DNA from: a virus
Taxonomy: Duplodnaviria > Heunggongvirae > Uroviricota > Caudoviricetes
Virus record (IMG/VR): IMGVR_UViG_2687453424_000001
Direction: 5' to 3' (one strand)
DNA: 64,000 nt
Each line of letters begins with the position of its first letter. The first letter of the stretch is position 1. The position numbers were made by a program, and so were the translations under genes. Below, piece by piece: positions 4,253-64,000 of the stretch. The notes beneath the pieces are model-generated. The model was not told the origin of the DNA. It saw nothing but the letters and a program-made list of their open reading frames with translations, and ran no database searches.

Positions 4253-4259
4253 CCTTTAA

Positions 4260-4830: not shown

Positions 4831-5628
<798 letters not shown>

Positions 5629-5639
5629 CTAAATAAAAA

Positions 5640-11161: not shown

Positions 11162-11275
11162 AAATGAGACGTTGATCGGCACGTAAGAGGTTCCAACTTT
11201 CACCATAATGAAATAAGATCACTACCGGGCGTATTTTTTGAGTTATCGAGATTTTCAGGAGCTAAGGAAGCTAAA
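11162..11275 (+). promoter_or_regulatory. cat promoter and ribosome-binding site (Tn9 cassette)
   Basis: Sequence aaatgagacgttgatcggcacgtaagaggttccaactttcaccataatgaaataagatcactaccgggcg...aggaagctaaaATG is the standard upstream region of the Tn9/pACYC184 cat gene. Confidence 0.85.
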
Positions 11276-11935: not shown

Positions 11936-11947
11936 TTTTTTTAAGGC

Positions 11948-20234: not shown

Positions 20235-23200
20235 ATGGCGGAGCCAAATCGGAGTTCACCTTCCGCCTCCGCCTCCGCCTCTGCCTCCTCCTCCTCTTCA
20301 TCTTCGTCTTACAGGGAGGATTCAGGCGGTGCGGCCGGGGCGGCGGCGTCGTCTTCGGGTACTTCTTCGCAGGTTCGAGAGGAAGAGGAAGGGCAAGATC
20401 ACGAGTATCGGCAGCATCTGCAGCATTTTCATAACCCTGAGCTAGAGAATCAGCACATTGACCTAGTTTCTTATAGAGGTAACTTATCTGGTTTCGATGA
20501 TTCGTCAACGGTGATTGGAGACGACACGTGGTCTTGCATCATCGTGGTTCTCACTTTTTGGTTTTTCGGTTAGTACCCTTTTCCCCTTTCTCATGAATCG
20601 CTCGTTCTTTACATTTGAAAGTAAAAGCTTTTATCTTATGTTGATTCTTTTCGATTGATTTTCTTTTTGAATCGAACAGTGTCTATGACTTTGATTTTGG
20701 GTGTTTACGGGGCGGTGAATATACGGGTCGGTCCGAATTGTTCCCTTCTACTTCAACCGAATCCTATTTTTGTTCAGAGTGTAAAGGTGATTTGCCTTTT
20801 TCTTTTTTCCTTTCTAATTTTTTGATTCGTTTCATGCTTTTTCTTTAAAGGGAAGGGTGGTTTTTGGGTCTATATCTTATTTGGCTTTGTGTTAGGTTGA
20901 GGAGGTAGATGATACCAAGCCAGGGCTCAAACTATATGGATTTTATAAATCTCCATCTCTTGATGTAGTGACTACCTGGTCTGAAACTCGTACCGCTACT
21001 GTTCAAGCTGATTCTCACAAGGCAAGTTCGGTTTCTTGTTCTGTTTTTTGCTTGAATGTTTTGGTTCTGAACTTGTATTTCATTTCCCAAATTTTTTTTA
21101 TATTATCCAGGAGTGGATTCATTATCTGAACAGGGGCTCTCAAGTTAATATTTCATATAATGTGAACTCAGCAGGCTCCTCTGTTTTCCTTATAATTGCT
21201 CAAGGTATCCTGAAACACTAAAAGCTTTTTCAGAATGTGTTTCTCAAAGAATTATTTTCACAAAGTGTGTGTGGAAATGCTGTAGATTAAGTAATTGAAT
21301 CCTGGGAATCTGATGCTTTAATTCATTTTGTCACATTGCAGGCAGTGAGGGCCTTTCTCAATGGCTTGAGGACCCAACATATCCTAACACCACTTTGTCG
21401 TGGAACATTGTTCGTGGTGAGATGGAAATGCAAAAGTATGAATGTTCTTACTATATAGAGTTTTATGCTGACTTTGATATTACTTTTCGGCAGGAAGTGG
21501 TATGATTCAGCAGGATATATATAGATCTTCAAGTTACTATATTGCACTGGGTAATTTGAACTCAGAGGATGTGGAGGTAATTGAAAAAATTTGACCTGCC
21601 GAGCTTGGTTTGTTGTTTTGGTTCTTTCATTGAAGTTCTGCTAAAATATTTGAGATATTGAGATCAAAACTTCATTGTCTTCTGTTACCAACCTCAGAAA
21701 AGAAACGTTTCATGGTGCTTGTCCCTTTTGATTTGTCAGAATTGATATTATGATATGATTGAAGAATCGGATTAACTTACTAAGAAAGGGTTACTTTAAT
21801 CCATTTAAGCAATGCTACATTGTAACTGTGGTGGAAATATTATAAGTGCAGCAATGTCAAGTAAAACTTTGGGCTGAGGAGGGTGTTTATTTCTGCAAGG
21901 CTGCAGTTATAGAAGTATAGGAATCTATAATATGGATTGACATTTTTATGGTAAACATGAGAACATAAATGCTGCAAGTCTCAATTTACTTTAAAAGTTT
22001 GTATGAATGTCAGATGGACTAATGGGCAAAATTGAATAGCCATGGATCCATTTTCCTAACAATTATTTAAGCATATGACTTCAAAATATTAATTCCAAGA
22101 AACTCAGAACCTGCCAAGTCAGGTTTGAGAGGCAGGTATATATAATGGATATCTCAAGTTCAAGTAAATGCGCTGTAGGTGACAAAAAAGCCTATCATTC
22201 TCTCAGATTTCACTGAACCTTTTCTTTTTATTAGATGCTGTTCCCTTGCCCTTTTTTGTGTTCTTTGGTTTCATCTTTTCACATAAAAATTGAGTTGATT
22301 TTAACATTGAACAGGTGGAGTTAAACATCACAGTCAGGGCTTTCATCTACAATACAACTGAAGCTTACTACAGATGTACCTTCGGTAATGGCCTGTGTAG
22401 CTTGAGTGTTTTGTTTCCTCAGGGAAATTCTGTTGTCTTGACTTCTCCAGGTCTAGAACAGGTAAATCTCTTTTTATTTTAAACCTAAATCCTACTTTCT
22501 ATGTCTTTCTTGAGATTATGTCGTTTTGAAGGCTGTTACAGCGGCATTCCTATGTTATTAGGCATGATAAATATATGTTCTAATGCTTCCGTCTGTGCTG
22601 AATAATTTCTTATCTTTTGAAGTGCTATACTGAATAATTTCTAAATCCTGTTTTAGAAAGTCTTTTCATTTTCTGTTCTCCCTCTTTTTGGCTACTTCAG
22701 AGTACATCTGCAGATGACTGGTCTGTCAGATTGTCATATGGACCAAGATGGATTATATATATAGTTGGCATTGGTAAAGTTCTTTCTTTTAATTACTCTA
22801 AATGCGCAACCTTTACAAATGTTTCATGTTTAAATCTTGAATTCTAATTTTCTTCTTAAAGGTGGAATGACAGCAATCATGTTGGTAGCCTTCAACTTCT
22901 TAAACAAGTTCCAATTTACCCGTGGAGGTGAAACAAATCTTCATTATGGGGAGAATGCTTCTGCAAGGGCCCCTCTGCTTTCTAACAAAGATGATGATAT
23001 CTCAAGTTGGGGTTCATCCTACGATTCTGTCTCAAGTGATGAGGCAGATCTTGAAGATTTTCTGGCAGCAGGTTCTGTTGAAGGGACATCAATAAGAGAA
23101 GGTGAAAACAGTAACAATACCCGACGTCTTTGTGCAATTTGCTTCGATGCTCCAAGGGACTGCTTCTTCCTTCCTTGTGGGCACTGTGTGGCTTGCTTTG

Positions 23201-23463
23201 CATGTGGATCTAGGTAACTACTTTGCATCCTCACCTTTTTTACACGAAAGGTTGCTTTGGAAATAGTCTAGCTTCATTCTTAACCCTGCTCCCAATTTAC
23301 AACAGCAGGCTGTTCATCACCCTTAATGGTTCCCAGAACTTGAAATTTGCTCCTATCTGATGTTGTGCTGTAACTGATCTTTTGCAGAATCGCAGAGGCT
23401 GCTGGAACTTGCCCCATTTGCCGTCGGAACATGAAGAAAGTGAGGAAGATTTTCACAGTATAA
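20235..23463 (+). CDS. RING-type (C3HC4) E3 ubiquitin ligase, APD (ABERRANT POLLEN DEVELOPMENT)-like, 10 exons, about 488 aa
   Basis: Hand-traced exons 20235-20568, 20680-20786, 20896-21021 (GC donor), 21111-21204, 21342-21416, 21494-21576, 22315-22461, 22701-22773, 22862-23213, 23388-23463; total 1467 nt, in frame. N-terminus is Ser/Ala-rich; C-terminus has the RING [41 protein letters not shown]. APD assignment is from memory of the family architecture (internal hydrophobic segments plus C-terminal RING). Confidence 0.7.
20263..20308 (+). repeat. Imperfect trinucleotide repeat (GCC/TCC)n inside APD-like exon 1, encoding a poly-Ala/Ser tract
   Basis: ttccgcctccgcctccgcctctgcctcctcctcctcttcatcttcgtct translates to SASASASASSSSSSSS. 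Confidence 0.8.
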
Positions 23464-27700: not shown

Positions 27701-28502
27701 NNNNNNNNNNNNNNNNNNNNNNNNNNNNNNNNNNNNNNNNNNNNNNNNNNNNNNNNNNNNNNNNNNNNNNNNNNNNNNNNNNNNNNNNNNNNNNNNNNNN
27801 NNNNNNNNNNNNNNNNNNNNNNNNNNNNNNNNNNNNNNNNNNNNNNNNNNNNNNNNNNNNNNNNNNNNNNNNNNNNNNNNNNNNNNNNNNNNNNNNNNNN
27901 NNNNNNNNNNNNNNNNNNNNNNNNNNNNNNNNNNNNNNNNNNNNNNNNNNNNNNNNNNNNNNNNNNNNNNNNNNNNNNNNNNNNNNNNNNNNNNNNNNNN
28001 NNNNNNNNNNNNNNNNNNNNNNNNNNNNNNNNNNNNNNNNNNNNNNNNNNNNNNNNNNNNNNNNNNNNNNNNNNNNNNNNNNNNNNNNNNNNNNNNNNNN
28101 NNNNNNNNNNNNNNNNNNNNNNNNNNNNNNNNNNNNNNNNNNNNNNNNNNNNNNNNNNNNNNNNNNNNNNNNNNNNNNNNNNNNNNNNNNNNNNNNNNNN
28201 NNNNNNNNNNNNNNNNNNNNNNNNNNNNNNNNNNNNNNNNNNNNNNNNNNNNNNNNNNNNNNNNNNNNNNNNNNNNNNNNNNNNNNNNNNNNNNNNNNNN
28301 NNNNNNNNNNNNNNNNNNNNNNNNNNNNNNNNNNNNNNNNNNNNNNNNNNNNNNNNNNNNNNNNNNNNNNNNNNNNNNNNNNNNNNNNNNNNNNNNNNNN
28401 NNNNNNNNNNNNNNNNNNNNNNNNNNNNNNNNNNNNNNNNNNNNNNNNNNNNNNNNNNNNNNNNNNNNNNNNNNNNNNNNNNNNNNNNNNNNNNNNNNNN
28501 NN
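24743..28502. other. Run of N (gap or masked block)
   Basis: All n. Confidence 1.
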
Positions 28503-29171: not shown

Positions 29172-30101
29172 ATGGCAGGAACCGGGGTGGTTGCTGTTTA
29201 TGGAAACGGGGCGATAACCGAAACCCACAAGTCTCCTTTCTCAGTGAAAGTTGGGTTGGCGCAAATGCTCCGAGGCGGGGTCATCATGGACGTGGTCACC
29301 CCGGAACAAGCCCGCATCGCTGAAGAAGCGGGAGCCTGCGCCGTCATGGCTCTCGAGCGAGTCCCGGCCGATATCCGAGCTCAAGGCGGTGTGGCCCGAA
29401 TGAGTGATCCACAACTCATCAAGGAAATTAAGCAAGCGGTTACTATCCCCGTCATGGCTAAGGCCCGTATTGGTCATTTCGTTGAGGCCCAGATCCTTGA
29501 AGCCATCGGAATCGATTATGTTGACGAGAGCGAAGTGCTTACCCCAGCCGACGAAGAGAACCACATTAACAAACATAATTTTCGGATTCCTTTCGTTTGC
29601 GGGTGTCGGAATTTGGGGGAAGCGCTTCGGAGGATCCGGGAAGGAGCTGCTATGATTCGAACCAAAGGAGAAGCTGGGACCGGCAACATTATCGAAGCCG
29701 TTAGGCACGTGAGGTCCGTGATGGGAGACATTAGGGTGCTTAGAAACATGGATGATGATGAGGTTTTCAGCTTCGCTAAGAAAATTCAGTCCCCATACGA
29801 TTTGGTCATGCAGACGAAGCAACTGGGGAGGTTGCCCGTGGTGCACTTTGCTGCCGGAGGAGTGGCGACGCCGGCTGATGCGGCGTTGATGATGCAGTTG
29901 GGCTGCGATGGAGTGTTTGTGGGGTCTGGGGTTTTTAAGAGTGGTGACCCGGCGAGACGGGCCCGGGCTATTGTCCAGGCCGTCACTCATTATAGTGACC
30001 CGGACGTGCTTGCTGAAGTTAGCTGTGGGCTTGGTGAGGCTATGGTTGGTCTTAATTTGAATGATAAGAAGGTTGAGAGGTTCGCGGCTCGGTCTGAATA
30101 A
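29172..30101 (+). CDS. PDX1: Pyridoxal 5'-phosphate synthase subunit PDX1 (vitamin B6 biosynthesis), intronless, 309 aa
   Basis: Single [83 protein letters not shown]...[20 protein letters not shown], the highly conserved PDX1/SNZ/PdxS sequence. Plant PDX1 genes are characteristically intronless. Confidence 0.92.
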
Positions 30102-48090: not shown

Positions 48091-48110
48091 TCTCTCTCTC
48101 TCTCTCTCTC
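48091..48110. repeat. (TC)10 microsatellite
   Basis: tctctctctctctctctctc in the intergenic region between the symplekin and DnaJ genes. Confidence 0.95.
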
Positions 48111-49363: not shown

Positions 49364-51953
49364 ATGGGCGTTGATTATTACAAGATTCTTCAGGTCGACC
49401 GGAATGCAAAAGATGAAGATTTGAAGAAAGCTTATCGGAAACTGGCCATGAAGTGGCATCCCGATAAAAACCCTAAGAACAAGAAAGATGCCGAAGCCAA
49501 ATTTAAGCAAATCTCCGAGGCTTACGATGTAAATTTTATTTTATTTGATTTTTTTGGTTATTTATTTATTTTTTTAATGGAATTTTCAATTAATTGTAGG
49601 TTTTGAGTGATCCCCAAAAGCGTGCGGTTTATGATCAATACGGAGAAGAAGGATTAAAGGGCCACATGCCACCCCCGGGGGCGGGCGGGTTTCCCGGAGG
49701 GGCGGACGGGGGTCCGACGATGTTCCGGTTCAATACTCGGAGCCCCGATGATATTTTCTCGGAAATTTTCGGGTTTTCGAGTCCGTTTGGGGGGATGGGT
49801 GATATGGGCGGGTCACGTGCTGGGGCGTCGGGTTTCCCCAGGGGCATGTTTGGGGAAGATATTTTCGCCTCGTTGAGGGGCGGAGCTGGAGAGGGTTCTA
49901 CGACTATGCCCCGAAAAGGACCCGCTATTGAACGAACATTGCCTTGCAGCTTGGAGGATTTGTATAAAGGGACTACCAAGAAGATGAAGATTTCTAGAGA
50001 TGTTTCTGATGGTATCGGGTAATCTTTTATTTCTATTTTTTTCTTTTTAAAGTTAATTTAGTTGGGTAATGCTTAGTTTTGCTATTTTGATTTTACTAGT
50101 ATGTGGATAAGTGATTTTCAGCTGGATTTATCTGTAGATCTAAGTTCAATTTATTAGCTTTGAGCATAACTTATAATTTAATGTAGAACATCAATAATTG
50201 AATCCTGAAAGGTTTTTTAGGCATAAGACAAGGAATAATTAACATTTTCAAGCAGCGGATATCTTAGCTTGAGTCGCAAAAGATGTTTACAGAGGTTGCC
50301 GAGTTTGACTTTTTGCGAAAAATGGTACTTGTTAGGATAATATGATTCTATTATTTAAAATGATTGGTTGTTTCCCCAAGTGATGACAAAGTTGCATGAC
50401 AGTTAGATTTGATCCAAAAAGTTGTGATTGTTGAGATCTTATGAGCATTATTTTACATTGTTATTCAATTGAGTCTTTTCTGATCTGCGGTCTTAATGTT
50501 CGAGACAGATTTAGATTGGTCAGCATATTTCAGCAAACAAGCAACGCTATTAGAATAATAAACCAGAAATAAACCGGTCGTGTAAGTGTATATTTTGGAG
50601 AATCATAGCTAGGGGCATTTAACTCTGTTAGGCAAACATAATTTAAATTTTATTAGATTTTCTTATCTGGAAAGGAATCTTATGGGGATTTCTTTGCATG
50701 AAGGTATACTCTTTCTCTGTGTTTGATCCTTCTTCCTTATATAGCAAAAAGACTTTCTTTTTCATTCCTCTTTCTCTTTTTGTTTTTCGGTTTTGGTTCA
50801 CTGTCTTTTTAACTTATGGTCAGTTTTTTAATTTCCTGAGTAATAGAGATACTTCTATGGTATTATATAATCTGTTTTGATTATATGATTATTTCCTATT
50901 ATCCTCAACAAAGCTTCTTTCACAATTTGTTCTTTTTCCATAAAGATTAGATTGATCATGGAGATTATTTGTCCATCTATGTGTTTGTGACCAACTTTGG
51001 GAATTTCTTGATGCTTACTCAAGATTCATTTTTTAAGTTCTCTTTTTTTGTATTTTGCTTTATGCCAAATTTGTAAATTTGGCTTCAGCTGATGATAATT
51101 GCTGCATGTTGAAAATAATAGTGGCTTTGTGACGGTATGTCCCTGTCATCAGTTAGCCTTGCTGTTTTGCTTCAGTTTAACCAGATTATCCACAAGCTGG
51201 TAGTTTTTAGATCAGCACACTAGTTGGAATTTCCTAGAACACAACTTTATATCAGCTTAATTTACCATGTGAATTCAACTTGTCGAGTCCGAAATTTGCA
51301 TTCTACTGAATGCTTATATGCTTAAAACTGTGAGTGCTTACAATTTTGCACTTTGTATATTTATTAAGACTTACGTAGTTAAATTATGGCGAGAGAAGTT
51401 CCTAGTTCTAGCAATAATATGTAGTTTTGGGAAATCTTAAAACCGTGATCTTTTACAGTTAACTTTTTTATTCCTTTATTTTCAAGAAAATACTTTTTTA
51501 TCCCTTTACAGGAGACCTACTACAGTGGAGGAAATTCTTACTATTGAGATTAAGCCAGGGTGGAAAAAAGGTACAAAAATCACTTTTCCAGAGAAGGGAA
51601 ACGAGCAACGAGGGGTTATTCCTTCTGACCTTGTCTTCATCATTGACGAGAAGCCTCACGGTGTGTTCAAGAGGGATGGCAATGATCTTGTTGTTACTCA
51701 GAAGATATCTCTAGTGGAAGCTCTTACTGGTTATACAGCACAGCTGACAACGCTTGATGGACGGAATCTGACGGTCCCTATTAACAACGTCATTAGTCCA
51801 ACCTATGAAGAGGTTGTTAAAGGTGAGGGAATGCCCATTCCCAAGGAACCTTCTAAGAAAGGAAATTTGAGAATTAAATTCAGCATCAAGTTCCCTACCA
51901 AGCTTACGACAGAGCAGAAAACTGGCCTGAAGCGGTTAATGTCATCTCCCTAG
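49364..51953 (+). CDS. DnaJ/Hsp40 subfamily B co-chaperone (J-domain protein), 3 exons, 341 aa
   Basis: Exons 49364-49528, 49600-50018, 51512-51953 (1026 nt, in frame). J-domain [37 protein letters not shown] with HPD motif, Gly/Phe-rich linker ([12 protein letters not shown]...FGGMGDMGG), and C-terminal substrate-binding domain ([26 protein letters not shown]...). Confidence 0.88.
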
Positions 51954-53407
51954 GAAACGGTGGTAGCCCTCGCTACCATCAAGCCAACTTGTGTAAGTTA
52001 GCATTTTGTTTTTATTATTTTTTTTGGAAAGGAAATTTATGCGTTGCTGAACTGGGATTGCACAACAGTTATTTAGGAGTTCATAAATTATTTTCCATAT
52101 TTCCGTTTTCTCTGCCTGTTAAGACTTCTCTTAACCTTGTGGTAATTGGCCAGAGCTTATAGTCAAGGCCTGTTCTTAATTTGGCTCAACAATCTCCATC
52201 ATTTCCTTATACACAAGGCAGCATGCTTAAGGCATGCAAGTTGGACCAGAAATGGTATTTCCAGTGGCTCCTTGCTCTCACTGCACAGTAACACAGCATA
52301 TACTATGAATACAGTCGATTGGTTCGGTCTGCTCTCCATGCACAGTACACGGCTTTATCTGTCAGGTGCAGCATGCATCCTAGCAATAGAAACATTTGTT
52401 AGAACGGAATGCAGAAGGTCTAGATCAGAGCCGGCCATGCCCATGTGACTGACTCGAGAGAGCTTAACCCCCCCTTCCCACTTCTCCTTCAGTCATTATT
52501 TTAACACCATTTTCAAAGAGGTCGTCAGCTATGATCAAAGACTCCAACCCCATCTGACTTTTTTTGGGAACGCCATGACCGTTAGTTAACCAGCAGCAAC
52601 CAGTTTTGAGGGAGTTGTCAAAGAGTGGTTTTGAAAAAGAATGCTGCGTTTTGATACTGCCAGCATTAACCTACTAAGCAAGTTTAGTTCTACTCCTACA
52701 ACTATGATTGTTTTTACTAATCTAAAATAAAAAACTAATTGGAGGTTTTTTTAAATTAGTTTTCAACTTTTACAAATAAATTCTATAAAAAGGGCTTTTA
52801 CAAATAAATATATTATCTATTTTCTAAGATTATATTAAATTAAAAAAAAGAAGAAGCAGATTTCACTATACTTCTAATATATTTCAATTTTATTCATACC
52901 ATACGCTGTGAATTTTTATAATTTGTATTTTGTGAATATTTTTTTAATTATTACTCATAGGTTAATTTTTATTTAGTAAAATTATTAAAATATTTAATTT
53001 ATTTGTTTGAAAAATTTATGTGAAAAGGATTATAATAAAAGATAAAAAGATAAAAGATAAAAGTGAAATTTATCCAAAATAATAAAAATAGAAAAAGATA
53101 CTATTGTAGTTACGGTTTTACTATCTACAGTTCAAAGTGGCACGCTTCCAGTTATGCGGGACCCGATAAACAACCAGTGGGGAAGCGGCAAAGCATTAAA
53201 AAGAGCGGAGTGGCACTAGCAAAACTCTAGTCTCAAACTCTCCAATCCCATTCCCCCGTAAAGTAGTAGCGTTAAACTGAATTTGCTCTTCGCTGGCTCC
53301 CCTTTTGTACACGTTTACTCCAATACGTTCGTGTTGGATCCGTCCTCTGTCTGCCTTTGAATTCTTTCTACAAATCTCTTCGATTTCCATTTTCTTTGTA
53401 ATTGGCC

Positions 53408-55583
53408 ATGGAAATGGCTTCCGCTGCTCGAACCGTCGAGGAGATCTTCAAAGATTACTCTGCTAGAAGAACGGCCATCGTTCGTGCTTTAACATACGGT
53501 GAAATTTTATTTCCATTCTTTTTTCTCCTCTTTTTGGTTTTTTTCTGTTTCGATTTTTACGTCTTTGTAGCTGTTTAACGGTGCCGTTTTCTTTGTCTTT
53601 CTCTCAGATGTGGATGAATTTTATGGACTCTGCGATCCAGGTATTCTCTGATTGGAGATCCGAAAACCTCTTCTTTCTTTTTTTTTTTAAATTTTATTTT
53701 CAATTTTATTTCTATTTTTGCATGTAAATCCGAATTTCATAGTTTTATTTTATTTCATTTTTACATGCAATCAGATTTCGGTTCTTAATTGAATTTAGAA
53801 ATTATCGTTCCTCGTTTAATAATGAAGTTACTGAATTCCAGAATTGCAATTCCTTAGGAAATTCAAGTTGTCTGCTTTTATGCAGAAGAAGCTTTCCCTC
53901 TTAGTTTGGCAGAGATCAAACAGAGGTTTATATATAAAAAAAGGTTTTGTTCTTTGCTTTTTGTTTGGTCTCAGAAAAAGAGAATTTATGCCTGTATGGA
54001 CATCCGAATGAAAGCTGGGAAGTGACTCTGCCAGCAGAGGAAGTTCCACCAGAGCTTCCTGAGCCGGCACTTGGCATTAACTTTGCAAGAGATGGAATGA
54101 ATCGAAAAGATTGGTTGTCCTTGGTCGCGGTGCATAGTGATTCGTGGTTGATTTCTGTGGCTTTCTATCTCGGTGCGCGTCTTAACCGCAATGAAAGGTA
54201 CTGTCTTTTTCCTTCTGTTTTTGCTTCATGTGTAGAAGGATCATGTTGAAGCAGTTTTAAGTTCATTGAAAATCGGGTTGATTCATCAAGTTTCGTTTAG
54301 TTTCTTTTGTAAATTTTGGTATCAACTTTGATTATTATCAGGGAATGCTTCCCTTTGTTTTTCCCGGCGCAATATATTTGTTGGTCTAGTGGTGGTTCAG
54401 ACTTGAACTGTTTTTCTTCAGTTGGATGTTAGAAATGACTATGCAAGATTACCAATGCAAATACAGAAGTAGTGAATGCATCAGGCTTTTTCTTGTGGTG
54501 CTTGGCAGAGTAAAAACTTGATATATGCATATGCATAGGTCTCATGATATTGTGTTCGTATTTTGCTCGTTTATGGAATACATTTATAATTGTTTATTAT
54601 CATGTTTCATTCCAGGAAACGCCTATATAGCATGATGAATGATCTGCCCACTGTCTTTGAGGTTGTAACTGAAAGGAAGCCAGTTAAAGACAAACCAAGC
54701 ATGGATAGTGGGAGCAAATCCCGGGGCAGCACAAAGGTTAGACAGATCAAATCTATTGTGATTTTTATTATTATTTGAGCTTGGACAATTTAATCATAAA
54801 CTTTTACGCTTAGATTCTCTTCTATCACTGAGAAAGGGAGAAGGGGGGTGGTATGACTGAGGGAAACCTTTTTTTTTTTTGGAAAGTTAAGCATTTCATT
54901 ACTGAAACAGGGAATAAAAAGTTCTGTGGAACATTACAAAGGCAGCACCTAATTTTGGATTTTGTTATGGACATAACATAACAACCAGAAATCAAGGCCT
55001 CAGATACAGAAAAGCAGAACAGCAGCATCATCAACCCACAGACTCATCCTAATTTTTGTTCACAAAATCTATACACAAAAACGTATCAATATCATCATCA
55101 AACCCTGTACAACTATTGAAATATACTTGCTATCATAATGCTCAAGCCACCCCATCCATTAATCATGTAAAGTGCCCAGTTGTATCGTAATGAATGCACA
55201 GTTTGATATGATTAAGCCTGCAGAGCAGGCCTAATATTTCCTACACGAAAGAATGAATTTCTTGTACTTAACCTGTTCAGGTATTTTTTTTTTTTTTGTG
55301 TTAGTCACTGACTTGATTCTTTGCTTTATAGAGATCAATTGAAGGACAAGCCAAAAGCAATCCTAAGGTTGCGGATGAGATTTTTGAGGAAGATGAAGAT
55401 GAACACAGTGAAACACTCTGCGGCAGCTGCGGTGGAAATTACAATGCAGATGAGTTTTGGATTGGCTGTGATGTTTGTGAGAGGTGGTTCCATGGGAAGT
55501 GTGTGAAGATAACACCTGCTAAAGCTGAGAGCATTAAGCAATACAAATGCCCATCTTGCAGCTTGAAGAGGGGCAGGCAGTGA
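53408..55583 (+). CDS. Alfin-like PHD-finger protein (H3K4me3 reader), 5 exons, 239 aa
   Basis: Exons 53408-53498, 53608-53640, 53975-54197, 54616-54736, 55332-55583 (720 nt, in frame). N-terminal Alfin domain ([58 protein letters not shown]...) and C-terminal PHD finger ([47 protein letters not shown]). Confidence 0.88.
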
Positions 55584-56897
55584 CAGTCACTAAAATGACA
55601 AGAAGAGAACAGAGACACTTCAATGGCTGACAAAGTAGTATAGCAATATTCCTGCCTTTGGTAATGTAATGAAATTTTTCATCATGTCTGTTCATAATAG
55701 ATGCTTCGGAACAGATGGAAGTTCTACTTCTCCCAGATACCTTTGTTTAAATGTCAACTCATATGTTAGGATTTGTTTAACGTCTGAAAAATTTGTCAAT
55801 AACATTTGCCCATGTATGCTAGTCTTTGTCTTTTCTTCCTCCCACAAGGTGAAGGGTAAAATTCACTCAATACGGGACATTCTCAAATGATACCAGGTAG
55901 TGAAAAGATTAGATGACGCAAGGATGGATGGAAATCCTCTGCCCCGGTAATGTGACCTGTGTCACGGATTATGTTCTTTCGTCTAAGTATGCGATAGTCT
56001 GTGCGACACATGAGTGGAGGCTTCTACGTAAGTCAGTTAATACTCGGTTATATCTGTTTCAACAATAATAATAACAATAAATCAGACTAAGAAAATTTAC
56101 ATCAAAATTAAAAGGCATATCGAATGTCATATATGCAATCACTTAGTCATAATAAGAAAAAATATTTCGTTAATATGAAATTAATTACAAAGAGATCGAG
56201 ACATGCCATTGTCGGGTCACGAGGGCAGTCTGAGATGGATTGCTCATACTTTTACCAGTGAGGCAACCCAACAATCTGTCGATTGCTCACCTCTTATAAA
56301 GAGTTTACGAGATTTTACAAGTATTCTACCAATAACCATTACAATGTTTGAAATAAACATTCCTTTTTTAAAAGGTCTTTTTCTTTAAAAATTTAACAAG
56401 GATTTGTATCACCACGAGACATTACATTGTTTGAAAAAGGGATATTTTTCTTACATATACAAAAAGCTCAATCTAATAGACAACTCTACCCTGTTATAGT
56501 CTAGTACAAAGTTAGCTCGTGACACCCTGCCTCTTTGCCCCGTGAACAAGGGGATCGAACCAAGGTCATGTTCATGGTAAAATAGTTATTTTTTCTTTCT
56601 GTCTTTGGACCTTGGAGATCCTCGCCAAAAGAGTTTGAACAAGGAACAGAACCCTTTGAATGTGAATCAATTTGGACACTAGGAAACCTCAGCCAAATTC
56701 CGACAATTAGAAGACACAATAAGGACAGCTTAAGGCATCCATTAATCCTATCAATCAATTCTTAGTGCTTATCGCCACCTTAAAAATGTTTTCCTTCGTT
56801 TTCATCTGTTTTTGTCTCTCCGTCCCCCACCTCTCTATATTTCCCCTCCTACGACGGGGCGAATGCTTGTGCTACAATCGAGCCATTTCTCTCCACA

Positions 56898-58150
56898 ATG
56901 CGTCGTCCCAGTCGATCTGATGGCTTGGCCAAAGAACGCCTGAGATGGACTCAAGAGCTGCATGATCGATTTGAAGATGCTGTTAATCAGCTTGGAGGTC
57001 CAGATAGTAAGTTTCTGATAGCTCGGAAACAATTTTTCCATTCATGCTTGTTCTTTGGTTTAATGTTTGTGTAAATTTTGGTTTGCCAGGGGCGACGCCA
57101 AAGGGTATCCTGAAGGCTATGGGGGTTGATGGACTGACCATTTACCATGTCAAAAGCCACCTGCAGGTTAGCTCCGTCCCCAACACTTACATATATGTAT
57201 CTTCTTTCCTGTAAATCAAAATGCCTATGGATTCATGTTTTAGTTTTATTTTTGCAGAAATACAGGATCTTAAAGTTTGTTCCAGAAACAAATACAAGTA
57301 AGTTGAAAGAAGTGAACCTTCAGTCTGATCACTCACATTGAAGTTAAGAAAAGAAAGAACTGATTGAAAAGACGGTGACCCTTTGATTCTAACTCTCTAA
57401 CTTTGATAACCATGTTCTTTTAACTGCAGAATGCAAGTTTGAGAGGAGAGATATATCAGAAATACTGCCTAATTTCGGTACAACATCGTGAGTTATCGTT
57501 TCTTTTCTGTTTTGATAGGGAATTATTGTATAGTACGAGTTTATTTTCTTATTGTGTCATTGTTGTGATTGAAAAAATCATTGAAGAGGGGCTCAGCTTA
57601 ATGAAGCCTTGCAAATGCATAAGGAAGCAGAAAGAAAGCAAGGGGATCATCAGCTCGAGGTAAACATACGGAAAATTAGATTCTCTTCGTTTTAGTTTTT
57701 CCACAAAGAAGAAAGGTATAGCCCTTCAGGGATGTAGCTAGTTTTAACAATTTCTAGAGGGGTTTATGTTTGAAGGCTCAAAGGAACTTGAAGATTAAGA
57801 TTGAAGCTCAGGTAATATTCCTTGAGAGACTTGCAGGCCAACATGGAAACCGAGCTACCCCAACAAAAGCTACCAAGCCATTCTCTCCCACATCACTGCC
57901 TTCACTCTGTGAGGAGTCTGAGTCGACTGCAAAAGATGGTTTCGAAACCGACCCCGAGGCTGACAGAAATGAGATAGAATCAGGAGAAAGAGTTCAAGCA
58001 ATGTATGCATTCGAATCATGGGACCAATATGATCATCAAGACATGGTTCTTAACAGGGAAGAAAGGGTTTCTTACCTTGCTAATGATATCAGCTTTCCCT
58101 GGAATGTCCCAGTTTGCTCATCATCCCCCCTGGTGCCTAGTTTTTTGTGA
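56898..58150 (+). CDS. MYB-CC type (GARP/PHR1-like) MYB-related transcription factor, 6 exons, about 243 aa; gene model provisional
   Basis: Exons 56898-57006, 57090-57166, 57258-57297, 57430-57487, 57587-57659, 57776-58150 (732 nt, in frame). MYB/SHAQKYF-class domain [51 protein letters not shown], then a coiled-coil-like segment LNEALQMHKEAERKQGDHQLEAQRNLKIKIEAQ. Internal splice choices were made by frame consistency only. Confidence 0.6.
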
Positions 58151-60300
58151 CTTTTGCCACAACTTCCATGTACAATTGATTTTGTAAAACAAAGCAATAA
58201 AACCATATCATGGACACAAAATTGATTGCTTTCAGGGTTGTCAAATTAAACACTTGGAAGGAGCATCTAACTTAATCTTGTAAATCATGAAAGCAATCAA
58301 GAACTTCCTATCACAAGTATTCATATCTAAATAAATTTGTACCATCCTAGCAATGCTGCTTGTGTAATAAAAAGAGGGTGATCTGATATATTGTTACTGG
58401 CTTTTCATGTAAGCTTGTAAAGCATCAATTCTATTGCAATTTTCTATAAAAAAAACAAAGAAAAATTGTATTGCTAAGAACAAAATAAATTTATTAGATA
58501 TATGACGTAAAATTACAAATTCATTGAATGAGTCTGTTTCAATTTTAAGATTTGTCCTGGGATTCTTTTTGTCCTCCTTGAGCTTGAAACTTCCTTGGTT
58601 TTATTCTCTTCATCGGGTCAAGCAGACACAAACAAACAACAAACATGAGCACAGCCACCAGCCATGCCAATGGCCATCGTGGCATATTGTCCATTGGGCT
58701 TAAATGATAGGTGACCACTGACTTGGGTAAAACTGCAAGCGTGGAATGGGCTGATTTTGGTCCATAGCTGGTGTCGTGACAACACAGTCAAAAGTTTGAG
58801 GCTAAGCAAGCAATGTGTAACACATGCCTGCCGACGGGTAGTTACATTGTATCGGCCTTCTGTTCATAGCCAAACCAAACCACATTAATTCAACATTGTA
58901 GTGCTGTAAGTTAAAAGCAAATTAAGACAAGAAGCTGCCAGTTAGGCATGGTCTTAGATATTATCGGGATAACGGGAGATCAGTGAATGAACCCTAACAT
59001 TTTCCAAATAATGGAAGAGATATATAAGCACGTGCCCTTTTCCATAAACATACTAAAGGAAGCAGTGAATGAATTTGTCTAACAGGGTACTAGCATAGAC
59101 AAGTAAGTCTACAACACTAGGTATAAATTAAAGTATTCTGACTGATCCTCCTCACAACATAGCTAAAGTTTGCCTTTTATGAAATTAATATACCGTCGTG
59201 CTATATATATATATATAGTACCTTATTATAATAAACTTTACTGCAGTACCCATTCCGCAGTGATCAGTGAATGCTTTGACAAATCGATTTATTAATAGCT
59301 ATTTATGTGTATCTCTGCCTACCACAACCACATAAAGAAAAATAAAGAGACAACTTGGGGGAAAGTTTGAAAGCTTTTAAAAAACGTGCCATGGTGGTAC
59401 TTGGAAATGGGGTGTTAAATGTGGAACGAGTCAAAAAGGCCAAAACATAAAGGACTTGTAACGTAATGGACATGACATTAATACAAAGAGGAAAATTTGA
59501 GTAAGGCAAAAGGACTACTGTAAAGGGCAAAAGCGAGAGAGAAGGAACAGCAACGTATATAGTACTTTTCTGTTTATGCTTTGCCCATCCTAGCAAGATC
59601 GAAAGTGGAGACGACCTGGGTGACCTTTTAGATATATGCGGTGTGTTTGCTGACTCATGGAAAATGTTTCAAAGCATAAGAGCCACAATTATTTTTGTAC
59701 CCTCTGCTATAGCACTGGTCAAAGCTGAGACCATCGAAAGAGTTAGGTTTTAATTCGTACGGATTCGAAATTGATTTACGTATGTTTACGTCTAAATTCG
59801 TTATTTTTTAGTATAAATATATTATATATACATATTTATCATGAAATCAAATATCGGTATATATCTCTTGATTGTATTGAATTTTATCCACGTGGAGCTG
59901 TCGTTAACGTTTTAAAATATCCAAGGCAACTAATCTGGATGGTATTTAATTTGTTTAAAAATTGACATCCCCAATTTCGAAGAAAGAGCGATGTTGTCGC
60001 CTGTTGTACTGCCCCAATGGTGGTTCACATTGTCATTATTATATGCTAATGGACATCTTGGGTTGGTTGTTTTCGATATACTACTTTAAGCAAAAGCTGT
60101 ATATAGCCCATGTGATGGAAATTCATATAAAGAAAATTAATAGGTGTGAGGGAAAACATGGAACTCATTGCAGCTTCATTTTCCAACTAAATTCAAACCA
60201 AACCAAACCACAATTATTCAGTCCAAATTATCAAGTGGGGGCAGCATTTTTCTTGGTATCTTCTCGTGGCAATTCATTGTCTGCCTAACTTGAAAAATCT

Positions 60301-60328
60301 GAAAAAGAAAGAAAGAAAGAAAGAAAGA
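60301..60328. repeat. (GAAA)n / (AAAG)n microsatellite
   Basis: gaaaaagaaagaaagaaagaaagaaaga, intergenic. Confidence 0.9.
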
Positions 60329-61216
60329 CGTTTAGCTGTCTTTATTCAATCCAAATCTTAAACCCAGGAAGAAGCAGCTAGCTTACTAGCTTTATGCATG
60401 TGCAAGAGACTGCATGCTTCTTGAGTGTACTCGTATACTAAAGGAATAGAGAGAAAGAATTGTAGGGTGAGAAGTTGGTGAAATGTTCTAATCATATACG
60501 TAATTATCAATTTGTTTCTTAGATTAGTCCAGGCAACTACTCCAATTTTACATGCCAAGGCGATTTTTCTTTAAAAAAGACAATGGGATATTTATCTATA
60601 TTATGATTCTAGAAAGGAAAGAATTTATTACAAGAACTATAAATTAAGGAATAGATCTCATATAAACAAAGATATTATAAAAATGTAAAGAAATTCTTTC
60701 TGTTCATCTGCGATTGAGATTGTCTCTTTAAAAATGTATTTGAGAGATAAGTCAAAAATTCTGTTATTGTAACTTTTAATATGATTAGGGATTTTGCAAA
60801 CATTTTTAATATAAAGAAATAAGAGGTGACAATTATCTCACTAGGTTGGTCATTTGATAGATTCTATTAATTTATAACACAAGTGAGCAAAGGCAGCCAT
60901 CACAGATTGGTTTTCTGCTACCAAAATTGACACAGACAACAAGTTTTATCCACATCCACTTTATCACTTAGGCTCCTTTTGACTCAGGCAACAATTTTGA
61001 ATAAAAGGGCATCAAGAATTTATAATATGATATGACACAAATTAATATTGCTTCTTGAAATGCTTGCATACAGTAATCTTTTCACATGATCATGTAAAGC
61101 TTCAAATTAGCTGATTATAGTACTTTCAGAAGCTCTATATTTAGGTTGGAGAGGCTTGGGAGTATTATTTAAATGTAAGCGATTGGTACACATCACACAA
61201 GTACTATGTATGGAGA

Positions 61217-63128
61217 CTATCTATTGGATTTCAAGGATTCAACTTGCGCTTTGCCACATGGACCCTTGGTCCTGATGTAAAGTCTGTACTCATCAAACGT
61301 CATGGGATTATACAGAGCCGGCCGGTCCTTACTCACTAGCTCCTTGGCTGGTTCGATGAGTAAATCACTCTTTGGGTTGTAGAAGAAAGCTAGGGAGACT
61401 CGATCTTTTGCTGAATTCACGATTACCCTGTGTTCAACACTCTTGTAAATTCCATTGCTCAGCACCTGAACGTGTTTCATGAAACCTATGATCAGCTTTC
61501 TTTTGCTCTTGAAACATGGGGCAATAATAATACAGAAGAAATTGGAGTGACAATCCTAGAGAGAAAGATCAGAAACCTGAAGCTGGTCTCCAACGTTGAC
61601 AATGAAAGCATTAGGAACAGGCTTCACGGTGATCCACTTGCCATTCTTACAAACTTGGAGTCCAGCTACGTCGTGATCAGGCAGGAGAATGGTCATGGCA
61701 CCAGGGTCTGAGTGTGAGGAAAGACCTAGGGTAAGGTCAGGCTGAGGACACTTTGGATAGAAGTTGACCCTTAAACAGGCACCGATGTCTTCTCCACCGA
61801 AGGCTTTCTGCAGGTAATCTTCTGGCAGTCCAAGATTTGTTGACATCGCCTTCAGCAGCCTTCCACACAGTTTTACAACTTCAGCACCATATTCTGCTAC
61901 CAGTTCCCTGCATCCAGATGTGAACAGCTAATGATTAGTAAATTCTGCTACCAGTTCCCTGCATGTTTAAGGTTAAAGCTCTCTCCATTCGTACATGTTA
62001 CATAAAACAGTAGAAAACAAATACCCTTTTCATTTTCAACAAAGTTGGGTCTACTATTTTGGTCGGGGATTAATATTTTAACCTGAATTTCTTTCTTTTT
62101 CCTTCCTTTTTCTGTTGTGAATTGTAAGCAAACTTGAAAACGACCAACACTCCTTTGCATGTGAAGTTGCAACTAATTAACTTTTGGTAAGGTTAGGAAA
62201 GATTCGAGGGTCAAAACCATCTCCATTGGATCGATGCAGGCCGTGCGATTTGGATATGGATTTGCTTTTTAATCATTCCATTTTGACTTCATGAAATCGT
62301 TTCCCTACCCTTAGAATTTTTGTCTTCTTTAATTATTGCCTTCAAAAGAGGAGATCAAAGTTGATCAATTAACCTCAGTCAATATGGGGGTGTTTATATC
62401 GTGAGACATCAGTTGCAACCCGGGCCAAATCTAAGATTATTGGTCAGTTGACCGAATCCCACTGTCCTAGTTTTTGTTCTCTTGGCAGATGTAAGAAAAG
62501 AGAAAGAATCTCTTTTCGTGCAGAGAGACAGGAACAAAAAGAAAACATCAACGTAAATAAAACATCATGGTATCACGTTTTGTAAAAAGATAAAATAAAC
62601 AATGAGGCAGGCAGGGGGTGCAGACCTGCAAGATGACGGTTGTGCAGGCCACTTGCTTTGATTCCTCGACGAAACCGGCATGAAGTGAAGAAAAAAGTAA
62701 TCGCTCCAATCCAGAATCGCTCCTTTCTCTACTCCCAAGCGACTGCCGTACCCTTCATAGGTACTTGGCTCGTTGGCATACCCTTGCTTCACTTCAAGCG
62801 GCAGGCTGAAGAATCGACGCCACACCTCTCGGATGCGCCTCATCAGCTCGTGGCTAACCCCATGGTTCACCGCCTGGAAGAAACCCCAGTCCCGGCACGT
62901 GCTGGAGATGCATCTCAAGGTCTCCTCCCGCAGGGCTAGGTCTTTCCCGAACAGGTTCTGGAGATCAACGACAGGAATGTCAACATGTTCTTCGATTTTG
63001 GAACATGTTTTCAGGCCAGGCCTGTCGGTTAGCGGCTTGATGTATCGCTCTGGAATGGCACGTATCCCACTGTCAGACAGAGACTGAACTCGAACCACCG
63101 GCTCAGGCCAACTCTGGAGACAATTCAT
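61217..63128 (-). CDS. 2-oxoglutarate/Fe(II)-dependent dioxygenase, JOX-like (jasmonate-induced oxygenase / At5g05600-type), 3 exons, 360 aa
   Basis: Exons 62626-63128, 61577-61907, 61217-61465 (1083 nt, in frame). N-terminus MNCLQSWPEPVVRVQSLSDSGIRAIPERYIKP (DIOX_N); Fe-binding HxD...H (HSDPGAMTILLPD ... YKSVEHRV) and the 2OG-binding RVS motif. The WPEPVVRVQSL...YIKP N-terminus is distinctive for the JOX/At5g05600 clade as I recall it. Confidence 0.85.
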
Positions 63129-63576
63129 TCTCTTCTTCTGTTTATATAATTTCAGGGTTTTCTTTCTTGAACAACCCAGACCCTAAAAACAAACGAAAAA
63201 CCAGAAAAGGAGAAGGATAGAGAGTGTTAGAAGAAAGCAGAGCTTGTCTGCTTATATAGCTTCGCTGATGGTGAAAAGAAGAGAGGGACTGAAGGGGTTT
63301 ATATAAGGATTGGAGGGAAACAATTTCGGCGCCGTGATGGAGTTGATTAGCTCATTACCGTAAATAAAAAGTAGGAAAGCAAGTACATGTGCTGAATATT
63401 CAGTGAAGAAAAGTGAATGGAAAGAAACAAGATAGCTTAGAATTTGATTTATCTTTCAAGAAAATCATTAAGCAGCAGGCACAAGGCTAGTGGCTGATAC
63501 AGAGATGGAATGTGTTGGAAAGATGGAGAAGTAGGCTTATAGATTAATAGAGCAGTGGACTTGTGCTGGAACAAAA

Positions 63577-63600
63577 CAGAGAGAGAGAGAGAGAGAGAGA
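63577..63600. repeat. (GA)12 microsatellite in the JOX-like promoter region
   Basis: agagagagagagagagagagagag about 450 bp upstream of the JOX-like ATG (minus-strand gene); a shorter (GA)n also lies at about 63813-63827. Confidence 0.9.
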
Positions 63601-64000
63601 GCGAATGATTTTTGCTTTTTTGACTCTGCCGAGTGGGCAGCAAACAAAATTAGGGCAGGTTCCTATTTTATTTCTTGCACGTGTGTTTTATGAGAAAGAC
63701 AGCAACTCTCTCTCATGTCTTTGGCCAACTGTAATTGTCAAATGTGTACGTGGCAATCCTAGATAGTGCGGCAATGGTCCATGTACTTTGTAGGCAAAAA
63801 AACAAAAAAAGAAGAGAGAGAGAGAGAAAAATACTTTTCCTGGTGGAGTTTGGGGGATTTGGAACTTGGATTTTGGAATTTCTTTTCCTTTTATTGGAAG
63901 GAAATCAAGGACTTGAGATGGAAAAAGAAATCCACTCACCAACTTGGTATTTGAGGCACAATTTCATTAAGTAATGTAATTACCTAATGAGCTCTACACA

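What the first reader, a model, noticed from the sequence alone, without database searches (positions are those of the whole stretch)
61217..63128. Candidate jasmonic-acid oxidase (JOX-clade 2OG dioxygenase)
The predicted 360-aa protein has an intact DIOX_N domain, the Fe(II) facial triad (H-x-D...H) and the 2OG-binding R-x-S motif, so it is probably catalytically competent. Its N-terminal WPEPVVRVQSL...IPERYIKP signature resembles Arabidopsis jasmonate-induced oxygenases that hydroxylate JA to 12-OH-JA and dampen defence signalling. The promoter (63129-64000) carries (GA)n tracts. Functional assignment within the large 2ODD superfamily from sequence alone is inference.
Basis: inference. Interest (0 to 1): 0.45.

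Follow-up and report, generated by a model that had tools for sequence, protein, structure and literature searches.

The report
Cacao jasmonic-acid oxidase (JOX) gene
This is an intact, transcribed cacao gene for a jasmonate-inactivating 2-oxoglutarate dioxygenase of the known JOX/JAO family, probably the counterpart of Arabidopsis JOX4: an ordinary but correctly recognised gene that RefSeq mislabels as an anthocyanin enzyme.

Summary
A three-exon gene on the minus strand (63128-61217) encodes the stated 360-aa protein. A spliced RNA contig confirms the model. The protein is 100% identical to Theobroma cacao EOY07187.1.

- Its best solved-structure match is Arabidopsis JOX2 (504 bits; next is anthocyanidin synthase at 266).
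- It keeps the Fe triad (H233, D235, H290) and the 2OG residues (R300, S302).
- It keeps all 11 residues that contact jasmonic acid in JOX2, including the arginine triad (R214, R339, R343).
- It nests in the eudicot JOX clade with AtJOX1-4 (bootstrap 88-100). None of 99 neighbouring 2ODD cluster representatives falls inside that clade.

Within the clade it belongs to a lineage separate from JOX1-3. Gene order (JOX, PDX1, APD-RING), profile scores and pairwise identity point to JOX4 as the Arabidopsis counterpart. My NJ tree did not recover that pairing.

One correction: two 2025-26 studies report that JOX enzymes make 11-OH-JA, not 12-OH-JA.

Activity and JA induction remain untested. This is a new member of a known family, of low interest. 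In passing: about 10 kb of BAC cloning vector sits at the start of the window.

The parts
62626..63128 (-). CDS exon 1 (ATG at 63128; codons 1-167 plus 2 nt of R168). Encodes the WPEP motif and the DIOX_N domain.
   Evidence: RNA contig block 63208-62625. AtJOX4 exon 1 aligns to 63110-62625.
61908..62625 (-). Intron 1 (GT..AG, 718 nt).
61577..61907 (-). CDS exon 2. Encodes R214, the HxD motif (H233, D235) and P236.
   Evidence: AtJOX4 exon 2 aligns to 61912-61490.
61466..61576 (-). Intron 2 (GT..AG, 111 nt, phase 0).
61217..61465 (-). CDS exon 3 with the TAG stop. Encodes H290, R300, S302, F306, F335, R339, I342 and R343.
   Evidence: AtJOX4 exon 3 aligns to 61465-61220.
63129..63208 (-). 5' UTR (minimum extent; the RNA contig starts at 63208).
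61134..61216 (-). 3' UTR (minimum extent; the RNA contig ends at 61134).
63252..63258 (-). TATATAA, a candidate TATA box 44-50 nt upstream of the 5' end of the RNA contig.
   Evidence: Its function is inferred.
63578..63601 (.). (GA)12 / (CT)12 tract in the promoter.
63813..63826 (.). (GA)7 / (CT)7 tract in the promoter.
63678..63683 (.). Single G-box (CACGTG) 555 nt upstream of the ATG. A possible bHLH/MYC2 site, but weak evidence.
   Evidence: About 8% of shuffles of the 1-kb upstream region contain at least one.
61942..61964 (-). Upstream copy of a 23-nt duplication of the intron 1 acceptor plus the start of exon 2. A decoy 3' splice site: if used, translation stops after RELVAEFTNH.
   Evidence: The RNA contig uses the downstream copy at 61891-61913.
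29172..30101 (+). Context: PDX1 (pyridoxal-phosphate synthase) gene. A synteny anchor, because PDX1.1 is the immediate convergent neighbour of AtJOX4.
20673..23217 (+). Context: APD-type RING gene. A second synteny anchor, collinear with the APD genes next to AtPDX1.1.

Best explanation
The gene encodes a cytosolic-type Fe(II)/2-oxoglutarate dioxygenase of the JOX/JAO family (DOXC46 clade). It most likely oxidises free jasmonic acid. Shown here: an intact, spliced and transcribed 360-aa ORF; the Fe(II) ligands H233/D235/H290; the 2OG-anchoring R300/S302; and every residue that lines the JA pocket of Arabidopsis JOX2. Inferred mechanism: R214, R339 and R343 hold the carboxylate and keto groups of JA. 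F146, F306 and F335 clamp the pentenyl chain so that C11/C12 sit about 4 A from the iron. Oxidative decarboxylation of 2OG produces an Fe(IV)=O species that abstracts a hydrogen and hydroxylates the side chain. The product would be 11-OH-JA according to the 2025-26 re-analyses, or 12-OH-JA in the classical view. This drains the JA pool before it is conjugated to JA-Ile and so damps jasmonate signalling, probably as a JA-induced negative feedback. Within the family it belongs to a rosid lineage ('B') distinct from that of AtJOX1-3. It is most probably the positional ortholog of AtJOX4.
For: Gene model, RNA support and database identity.
- Three exons give 360 aa. A spliced RNA contig supports the model.
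- The protein is identical to T. cacao EOY07187.1.
- Pfam finds DIOX_N and 2OG-FeII_Oxy.

Similarity to solved structures.
- By sequence, the best PDB match is JOX2 (6LSV) at 2e-150 and 504 bits. Next is ANS at 266 bits.
- Foldseek on the AF2 model also ranks 6LSV first (E 4.8e-38, TM 0.75/0.80).

JA pocket.
- The 11 JA-contact residues listed for JOX2 are R225, R350, R354, F157, F317, F346, Y135, L142, L241, P247 and I353 (PMC13385383).
- All 11 are identical in the query: R214, R339, R343, F146, F306, F335, Y124, L131, L230, P236 and I342.
- The RRR triad occurs in 275 of 276 clade members. Outside the clade it occurs in 4 of 99 sequences, three of them the monocot, magnoliid and fern JOX-like sequences.

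Tree placement.
- The NJ trees used 370-375 sequences: AtJOX1, AtJOX2, AtJOX3, AtJOX4, and 99 nearest representatives from a 1.84-billion-protein library.
- The eudicot JOX clade has bootstrap 100 without JOX4 and 88.5 with it. Adding a grass homolog gives 86-87.

Functional bracketing. AtJOX1-4, rice OsJAO1-3 and a poplar homolog oxidise JA in vitro.

Link to JOX4.
- Identity to the query is 64.0% for JOX4, against 61.2, 63.4 and 60.8% for JOX1-3. JOX4 is only 57-59% identical to its own paralogs.
- In lineage-profile scoring (B minus A), the query scores +55 bits and JOX4 with its orthologs +31. JOX1-3 score -37 to -41.
- At 9 diagnostic columns the query carries 9 B states, JOX4 5-6 B states and JOX1-3 none.
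- On Arabidopsis chr2 the order is JOX4(+), PDX1.1(-), APD-RING(-). This is collinear and co-oriented with the window's JOX, PDX1 and APD genes, and the JOX intron positions are conserved.
- PDX1 followed by symplekin in the window is collinear with the Arabidopsis-lineage PDX1.3 block.
- The JOX1 and JOX3 loci have no PDX1 or APD gene within 10 kb.
Against: No enzyme assay or expression data exist for this gene, and no paper mentions its accessions. The NJ tree does not pair JOX4 with the query: the JOX4 branch is long and falls at the base of the eudicot clade. Only 14 of 200 bootstraps group the query with JOX4 to the exclusion of JOX1-3. Support for the A and B lineages is weak (bootstrap 10-32). 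An Alfin-like PHD gene near the cacao gene also has a homolog next to AtJOX1, so part of the neighbourhood is shared with a paralogous block. The allele in this window carries S154 and C254 where about 90% of JOX proteins have L and R; the effect is unknown. Promoter evidence for JA control is one G-box, which is close to chance.
Confidence: 0.82

Rival explanations
1. It is a JOX-clade paralog whose substrate or regiochemistry has diverged. It might act on another oxylipin or carboxylic acid, or at a different carbon, so it would not be a straightforward JA-inactivating enzyme.
For: It lies in a lineage separate from the best-studied JOX1-3. It deviates from the clade at two columns that are at least 95% conserved: T77 for A, and A238 for G just after the HxD-P motif. 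Even for Arabidopsis JOXs the product was mis-assigned for years.
Against: All 11 JA-contact residues and the Fe/2OG ligands are unchanged. AtJOX4, the likely ortholog, oxidises JA with a Km of about 11 uM. Activity is conserved from rice to Arabidopsis.
Confidence: 0.1
2. The allele in this window is a weakened or inactive variant of a JOX gene. The ORF is intact, but activity is impaired by L154S and R254C.
For: The Criollo and SCA6 alleles have L154 and R254, like 246 and 256 of 275 clade members. The window allele has S and C. C254 also appears in an independent Logan read-derived fragment, so it is not a sequencing error.
Against: Neither position is among the listed Fe, 2OG or JA contacts. 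C occurs at this column in 3 other clade members. The ORF and splice sites are intact.
Confidence: 0.06
3. It is a leucoanthocyanidin dioxygenase (anthocyanidin synthase), as RefSeq names the near-identical cacao protein XP_007026685.2.
For: The RefSeq product name. The overall fold is as similar to ANS as to JOX2 by TM-score.
Against: It is 42% identical to AtANS but 63-64% identical to AtJOX2 and AtJOX4. The phmmer score is 266 bits against 504. ANS lacks the arginine triad, having K at the first position and no aligned residue at the other two. In the tree ANS is the outgroup, not a neighbour.
Confidence: 0.01

Closest known systems
Arabidopsis JOX4 / JAO4 (At2g38240, UniProt O80449)
   Same: It has the highest identity to the query of the four Arabidopsis JOXs (64.0%). 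It has the same three-exon structure with matching exon limits, and the same Fe, 2OG and JA-contact residues. The gene neighbourhood is collinear and co-oriented: JOX, PDX1, APD-RING. Its lineage-profile preference is the same as the query's.
   Different: In Arabidopsis PDX1.1 lies 319 bp from JOX4. In cacao about 31 kb and at least five genes lie between (MYB-CC, Alfin-PHD, DnaJ, symplekin, rhodanese). JOX4 sits on a long branch and did not pair with the cacao lineage in my NJ tree.
Arabidopsis JOX2 / JAO2 (At5g05600; crystal structure 6LSV with Fe, 2OG and JA)
   Same: It is the best solved-structure match by sequence and by fold. Identity is 63%, and all 11 JA-pocket residues and the catalytic residues are identical.
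   Different: It belongs to the other rosid lineage ('A') by profile score (-41 bits) and at 8 of 9 diagnostic columns. Its α-duplicate JOX1 has no PDX1 or APD gene within 10 kb; the JOX2 locus itself was not examined.
Rice OsJAO1-3 and poplar Potri.006G101200 (biochemically confirmed JA oxidases)
   Same: They are members of the same DOXC46 clade with JA to OH-JA activity. This shows the function is conserved across the span that brackets the cacao gene. The poplar enzyme keeps the arginine triad.
   Different: The rice enzymes form a separate monocot branch. I could not obtain the poplar sequence, so its lineage is unknown; its F/F/Y pocket pattern is commoner in lineage B.
Anthocyanidin synthase / LDOX (the RefSeq label for this cacao protein)
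   Same: Same superfamily, same two Pfam domains, same fold.
   Different: 42% identity, half the alignment score, and no arginine triad. The RefSeq name looks like a legacy best-hit label.

Membership tests
Plant DOXC-class 2OG/Fe(II) dioxygenases | N-terminal DIOX_N domain plus C-terminal 2OG-FeII_Oxy domain | tested here: met
   PF14226 at 2.6e-29 (residues 51-162) and PF03171 at 4.4e-37 (residues 211-309).
Plant DOXC-class 2OG/Fe(II) dioxygenases | HxD...H iron triad and RxS 2OG-binding motif | tested here: met
   H233, D235, H290, R300 and S302 align to the corresponding JOX2 residues.
Plant DOXC-class 2OG/Fe(II) dioxygenases | Double-stranded beta-helix fold | tested here: met
   AF2 model with pLDDT 73 and pTM 0.78. 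Foldseek gives TM 0.75-0.80 to JOX2, ANS, T6ODM and HSL1. The model is only moderately confident, with low-confidence loops at 121-143 and 229-233.
JOX/JAO (DOXC46) | Phylogenetic placement with AtJOX1-4, excluding other 2ODD clades | tested here: met
   NJ trees give bootstrap 100 (without JOX4) and 88.5 (with JOX4) for the eudicot clade containing the query. None of the 99 nearest library representatives falls inside. NJ only; maximum likelihood was not available.
JOX/JAO (DOXC46) | Arginine triad binding the JA carboxylate and keto groups (JOX2 R225, R350, R354) | tested here: met
   R214, R339 and R343. The triad is near-exclusive to the clade.
JOX/JAO (DOXC46) | Hydrophobic triad and further pocket residues (F157, F317, F346; Y135, L142, L241, P247, I353) | tested here: met
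   F146, F306, F335, Y124, L131, L230, P236 and I342 are all identical.
JOX/JAO (DOXC46) | 2OG-dependent hydroxylation of jasmonic acid in vitro | not testable with these tools
   Needs recombinant protein and authentic 11-OH-JA and 12-OH-JA standards.
JOX/JAO (DOXC46) | Transcriptional induction by jasmonate or wounding | tested here: inconclusive
   There is one G-box at -555 and one T/G-box at -1417 in 3 kb upstream. A G-box count of at least one arises in 8% of shuffles of the 1-kb region and 21% of the 3-kb region. One RNA contig shows the gene is transcribed but gives no condition.
JOX4 orthogroup (lineage 'B') | Conserved gene neighbourhood with AtJOX4 | tested here: met
   JOX, PDX1 and APD-RING have the same order and relative strands, and the JOX introns are conserved. 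The same window is collinear with the PDX1.3-symplekin block. The JOX1 and JOX3 loci lack PDX1 and APD.
JOX4 orthogroup (lineage 'B') | Sequence affiliation of JOX4 with the query's lineage rather than with JOX1-3 | tested here: inconclusive
   For: profile scores of +31 bits for JOX4 and +55 for the query, against -37 to -41 for JOX1-3; 5-6 of 9 diagnostic sites; highest pairwise identity. Against: NJ places JOX4 at the base, and only 14 of 200 bootstraps pair it with the query.
Anthocyanidin synthase / LDOX | Closest similarity to characterised ANS | tested here: not met
   266 bits and 42% identity to AtANS, against 504 bits and 63% to JOX2.

The most novel reading that the evidence does not exclude
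The cacao gene may represent an old JOX lineage (JOX4-type) that has been kept apart from the JOX1-3 type since before the rosids diversified, with a role of its own. One example would be the pathogen-triggered 11-OH-JA route. In addition, natural alleles differing at two otherwise conserved positions (L154S, R254C in this genotype) may change JA turnover between cacao genotypes. That would make the gene a candidate susceptibility locus or editing target for necrotroph and pod-rot resistance.
Probability: 0.1. Interest if true: 0.45.

Novelty: new member of a known kind. Interest (0 to 1): 0.2.

Why it matters
JOX/JAO enzymes set the resting level of jasmonate signalling. Losing them raises basal defence against necrotrophs and insects in Arabidopsis and rice, at a cost to growth. 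A correctly identified cacao JOX gene is therefore a reasonable candidate for expression studies or gene editing in a crop limited by fungal and oomycete disease. The practical gains here are modest. The RefSeq name for this locus ('leucoanthocyanidin dioxygenase') is wrong at the family level. The gene can be assigned to the JOX4-type lineage. Any assay should use 11-OH-JA as well as 12-OH-JA standards. Nothing about the gene is unexpected for a eudicot genome.

Tried and rejected
1. The 50%-identity representative library holds almost no JOX-clade members (best hit 55%). It served only to supply outgroups.
2. No supplementary files were held for the two papers most likely to contain JOX alignments.
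3. AtJOX3 and AtJOX4 were not in the top 120 hits of the first two homolog searches. The JOX3 bait retrieved the database cluster containing JOX3_ARATH. My remembered JOX4 was wrong in its N-terminal half, so I discarded it. Its C-terminal half retrieved a metagenome contig (L002) whose 353-aa ORF is, by exact look-up, JOX4_ARATH. Only database sequences entered the final analyses.
4. Three short cluster members (P0425-P0427) looked like possible transcripts. They end in intron read-through (QVSDLSL), so they are genomic exon 2 ORFs and give no expression evidence.
5. NJ with simple distances cannot resolve the deep branching inside the clade (bootstraps 0-40). I therefore did not rest the JOX4 claim on it.
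6. I could not obtain the assayed poplar enzyme Potri.006G101200. Matching by residue numbering found only a chestnut protein.
7. The loci of a Durio lineage-A gene and a poplar lineage-B gene carried no neighbouring gene calls, and the Vitis protein was not on record. A tblastn scan did show a MYB-CC homolog downstream of the poplar gene, as in cacao.
8. A full-text search for the cacao accessions found nothing.
9. Fold comparison does not discriminate between 2ODD families: ANS scores the same TM as JOX2.

Full report
**1. What is in the sequence**

Reading the minus strand from 64000 to 60800 shows an ATG at 63128 and three ORF blocks joined by canonical GT..AG introns. Joining 63128-62626, 61907-61577 and 61465-61217 gives 1083 nt and a 360-aa protein ending in TAG.

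The protein is 100% identical to Theobroma cacao EOY07187.1, named '2-oxoglutarate and Fe(II)-dependent oxygenase superfamily protein'. Near-identical alleles occur in three other cacao assemblies. One of them is RefSeq XP_007026685.2, named 'leucoanthocyanidin dioxygenase'.

The gene model is confirmed by RNA. A 1246-nt contig assembled from run ERR4077215 (L063) carries the uninterrupted 1083-nt ORF. It aligns to the window as three blocks: 63208-62625, 61912-61575 and 61470-61134. The gene is therefore transcribed and spliced as predicted. Its 5' UTR is at least 80 nt and its 3' UTR at least 83 nt.

No second copy of the gene is present in the window.

**2. Family-level identity**

- Pfam finds DIOX_N and 2OG-FeII_Oxy far above threshold.
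- Against all PDB sequences, the best match is Arabidopsis JOX2 (6LSV, At5g05600) at 2e-150 and 504 bits over residues 6-355. Next is anthocyanidin synthase at 266 bits. O-demethylases, HSL1, F6'H1, ACC oxidase, H6H and the GA oxidases follow.
- An AlphaFold2 model has pLDDT 73 and pTM 0.78. It also ranks 6LSV first by Foldseek (E 4.8e-38), although TM-scores are alike across the superfamily.

**3. Active site and substrate pocket**

The JOX2-JA structure is summarised in PMC13385383. It names an arginine triad (R225, R350, R354), a hydrophobic triad (F157, F317, F346) and five further contacts (Y135, L142, L241, P247, I353).

In a MAFFT alignment all eleven are identical in the cacao protein: R214, R339, R343, F146, F306, F335, Y124, L131, L230, P236 and I342. 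The Fe ligands are H233, D235 and H290. The 2OG ligands are R300 and S302.

The triad is a good family marker in my sample. RRR occurs in 275 of 276 clade members. Outside the clade it occurs in 4 of 99 sequences, three of which are the grass, magnoliid and fern JOX-like sequences.

**4. Phylogeny**

I assembled three sets of sequences:
- the top hits to the query, to JOX2 and to JOX3;
- AtJOX1, AtJOX3 and AtJOX4, each identified by the source's own name;
- the 150 nearest representatives from a 1.84-billion-protein library, as outgroups.

Neighbour-joining trees on the 360 query columns gave these results:
- The query sits in a Malvaceae group (bootstrap 97.5-98).
- That group lies inside a eudicot JOX clade with bootstrap 100 before JOX4 was added and 88.5 afterwards. 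A grass homolog is the next branch (bootstrap 86-87).
- No outgroup representative falls inside the clade.

The clade is DOXC46 in the Kawai numbering used by Caarls et al. and by the rice JAO paper.

**5. Which JOX**

Inside the clade, rosid sequences fall into two groups, each containing Malvales, Malpighiales, Fabales, Fagales and Sapindales.
- Group 'A' holds AtJOX1, AtJOX2 and AtJOX3.
- Group 'B' holds the query.
- NJ support for the two groups is weak (bootstrap 10-32).
- The JOX4 branch is long and goes to the base of the clade. Only 14 of 200 bootstraps pair it with the query.

Three other lines of evidence point to JOX4 as the Arabidopsis counterpart.

(a) Profile scoring. I built profile HMMs from A and B with all Malvales removed. 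Scored as B minus A:
- the query gets +55 bits;
- JOX4 and three Brassicaceae orthologs get +31 to +32;
- JOX1-3 get -37 to -41;
- grass and fern outgroups get about 0.

(b) Diagnostic columns and identity. At nine columns that separate A from B, the query carries 9 B states, the JOX4 group 5-6 and JOX1-3 none. JOX4 is 64.0% identical to the cacao protein but only 57-59% identical to its own paralogs.

(c) Gene order.
- On Arabidopsis chromosome 2 the order is trihelix(-), JOX4(+), PDX1.1(-), APD-RING(-), PDX1 fragment, APD-RING(-).
- Six-frame comparison shows the three JOX4 exons, PDX1.1 and the APD exons are collinear and co-oriented with window 63110-61220, 29172-30098 and 20673-23214.
- The same window is collinear with the PDX1.3-symplekin block of an Arabidopsis-lineage chromosome.
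- The JOX1 and JOX3 loci have no PDX1 or APD gene within 10 kb.

One complication remains. An Alfin-like PHD gene lies between the cacao JOX and DnaJ genes, and it has a homolog 2-3 kb downstream of AtJOX1. I read this as a JOX-Alfin adjacency that is older than the A/B split, but that is inference.

I put JOX-clade membership at about 0.95 and JOX4 co-orthology at about 0.7.

**6. Function and mechanism**

JA oxidase activity has been shown in vitro for AtJOX1-4, rice OsJAO1-3 and a poplar homolog that keeps the arginine triad. A poplar relative lacking the full triad was inactive. The cacao gene is bracketed by these enzymes and keeps the whole pocket, so JA oxidation is the best-supported function (about 0.8).

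Two independent studies now report that recombinant JOX/JAO enzymes produce 11-OH-JA exclusively. They attribute wound-induced 12-OH-JA to cleavage of 12-OH-JA-Ile by amidohydrolases instead (PMC13385383; bioRxiv 10.1101/2025.10.09.681447).

The physiological consequence is established for Arabidopsis and rice: less JA is available for JA-Ile formation, and signalling is damped. For cacao this is inferred.

**7. Promoter**

- The two (GA)n tracts are real: 63578-63601 and 63813-63826. They are two of only three such tracts in the window.
- There is a TATATAA at 63252-63258, 44-50 nt upstream of the RNA contig's 5' end.
- There is a single G-box at 63678-63683. That is close to chance, occurring in 8% of shuffles of the 1-kb region.
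- I would not draw any regulatory conclusion from these features.

**8. Peculiarities of this allele**

- Compared with the Criollo and SCA6 alleles, the window allele has S154 for L and C254 for R. At these columns about 90% of JOX proteins have L and R. Neither position is a listed ligand contact.
- All cacao alleles share T77 (A in 99.6% of the clade) and A238 (G in 97%).
- A 23-nt duplication in intron 1 creates an upstream copy of the acceptor site. Using it would truncate the protein. It is present in both Criollo and this genotype, and the RNA contig uses the downstream site.

**9. Verdict**

Both the observation and the interpretation stand. This is an uncharacterised member of a well-known enzyme family in an annotated genome. 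It is useful as a corrected annotation and a candidate for jasmonate work in cacao, but not surprising. Interest is 0.2.

Noticed in passing
window 1846-11945 (interrupted by Ns at 6811-11161): About 10 kb of E. coli BAC cloning vector sits inside what is otherwise cacao chromosome sequence. It carries sopB, sopA, repE, a resD-type recombinase fragment and a chloramphenicol acetyltransferase gene. Positions 1846-6810 are 100% identical over their full length to 7.6-8.9 kb E. coli plasmids from cell culture, and 98% covered by the F plasmid. Plant sequence (an LMBR1-like gene) begins right after the cat stop codon, near 11945. This is probably vector contamination in the source assembly.
   Followed up: partly
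window 1-1845, 6811-11161, 13379-17520, 24743-28502, 33222-37506: Five runs of N totalling 18,383 bases (29% of the window). One of them lies inside the vector segment. I did not establish whether they are assembly gaps or masking.
   Followed up: no
window 61942-61964 and 61891-61913 (minus strand): A 23-nt direct duplication (ATGCAGGGAACTGGTAGCAGAAT) of the intron 1 acceptor plus the first bases of exon 2, with copies 51 nt apart. The upstream copy is a potential decoy 3' splice site that would give a stop after 10 codons. It is present in the Criollo genome too, and the one RNA contig uses the downstream site.
   Followed up: partly
window codons 154 and 254 of the gene (exon 1 and exon 2): The allele in the window differs from the Criollo and SCA6 alleles by L154S and R254C. 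Both positions are about 90% conserved across 275 JOX-clade proteins. C254 is also seen in an independent Logan fragment.
   Followed up: partly
whole gene, 61217-63128: RefSeq names the near-identical cacao protein XP_007026685.2 'leucoanthocyanidin dioxygenase'. Related proteins in other species carry names such as ANS, SRG1, flavonol synthase, isopenicillin N synthase, 'calcium-dependent protein kinase 13-like' and 'Alfin-like 1'. Automatic names in this clade are unreliable.
   Followed up: yes
window about 53900-55700 (plus strand); L064 14143-15869: An Alfin-like PHD-finger gene lies between the JOX and DnaJ genes in cacao, and a homolog lies just downstream of AtJOX1. A Hibiscus lineage-A JOX protein is even named 'Alfin-like 1'. 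This suggests that a JOX-Alfin adjacency predates the split of the two JOX lineages.
   Followed up: partly
window 20673-47387: A conserved gene block runs APD-type RING, PDX1, rhodanese-like, then a roughly 10-kb, 19-plus-exon symplekin gene. It is followed by DnaJ (49.6-52 kb), Alfin-PHD and MYB-CC (56.8-58.1 kb). It is collinear with two Arabidopsis blocks, which look like duplicates that each lost different genes.
   Followed up: partly
window 51226-64000 versus L061 (GCA_000403535.1 CM001883.1): The window is not byte-identical to the public Matina assembly record that encodes the same protein. There are 2 mismatches and 12 gap positions in 12.8 kb, including a different (GA)n length at 63813-63826. 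The window therefore comes from another version or assembly of a near-identical genotype.
   Followed up: partly
L002 (JGI metagenome contig Ga0265290_101757): This 2.8-kb 'metagenome' contig is Arabidopsis thaliana sequence. It has an intron-less JOX4 ORF followed 319 bp later by PDX1.1 on the other strand. It looks like a metatranscriptome assembly that joined two convergent transcripts, which would imply overlapping or abutting 3' ends.
   Followed up: no
window 48091-48110: The only other long (GA)n/(CT)n tract in the window (20 nt), just upstream of the DnaJ gene.
   Followed up: no
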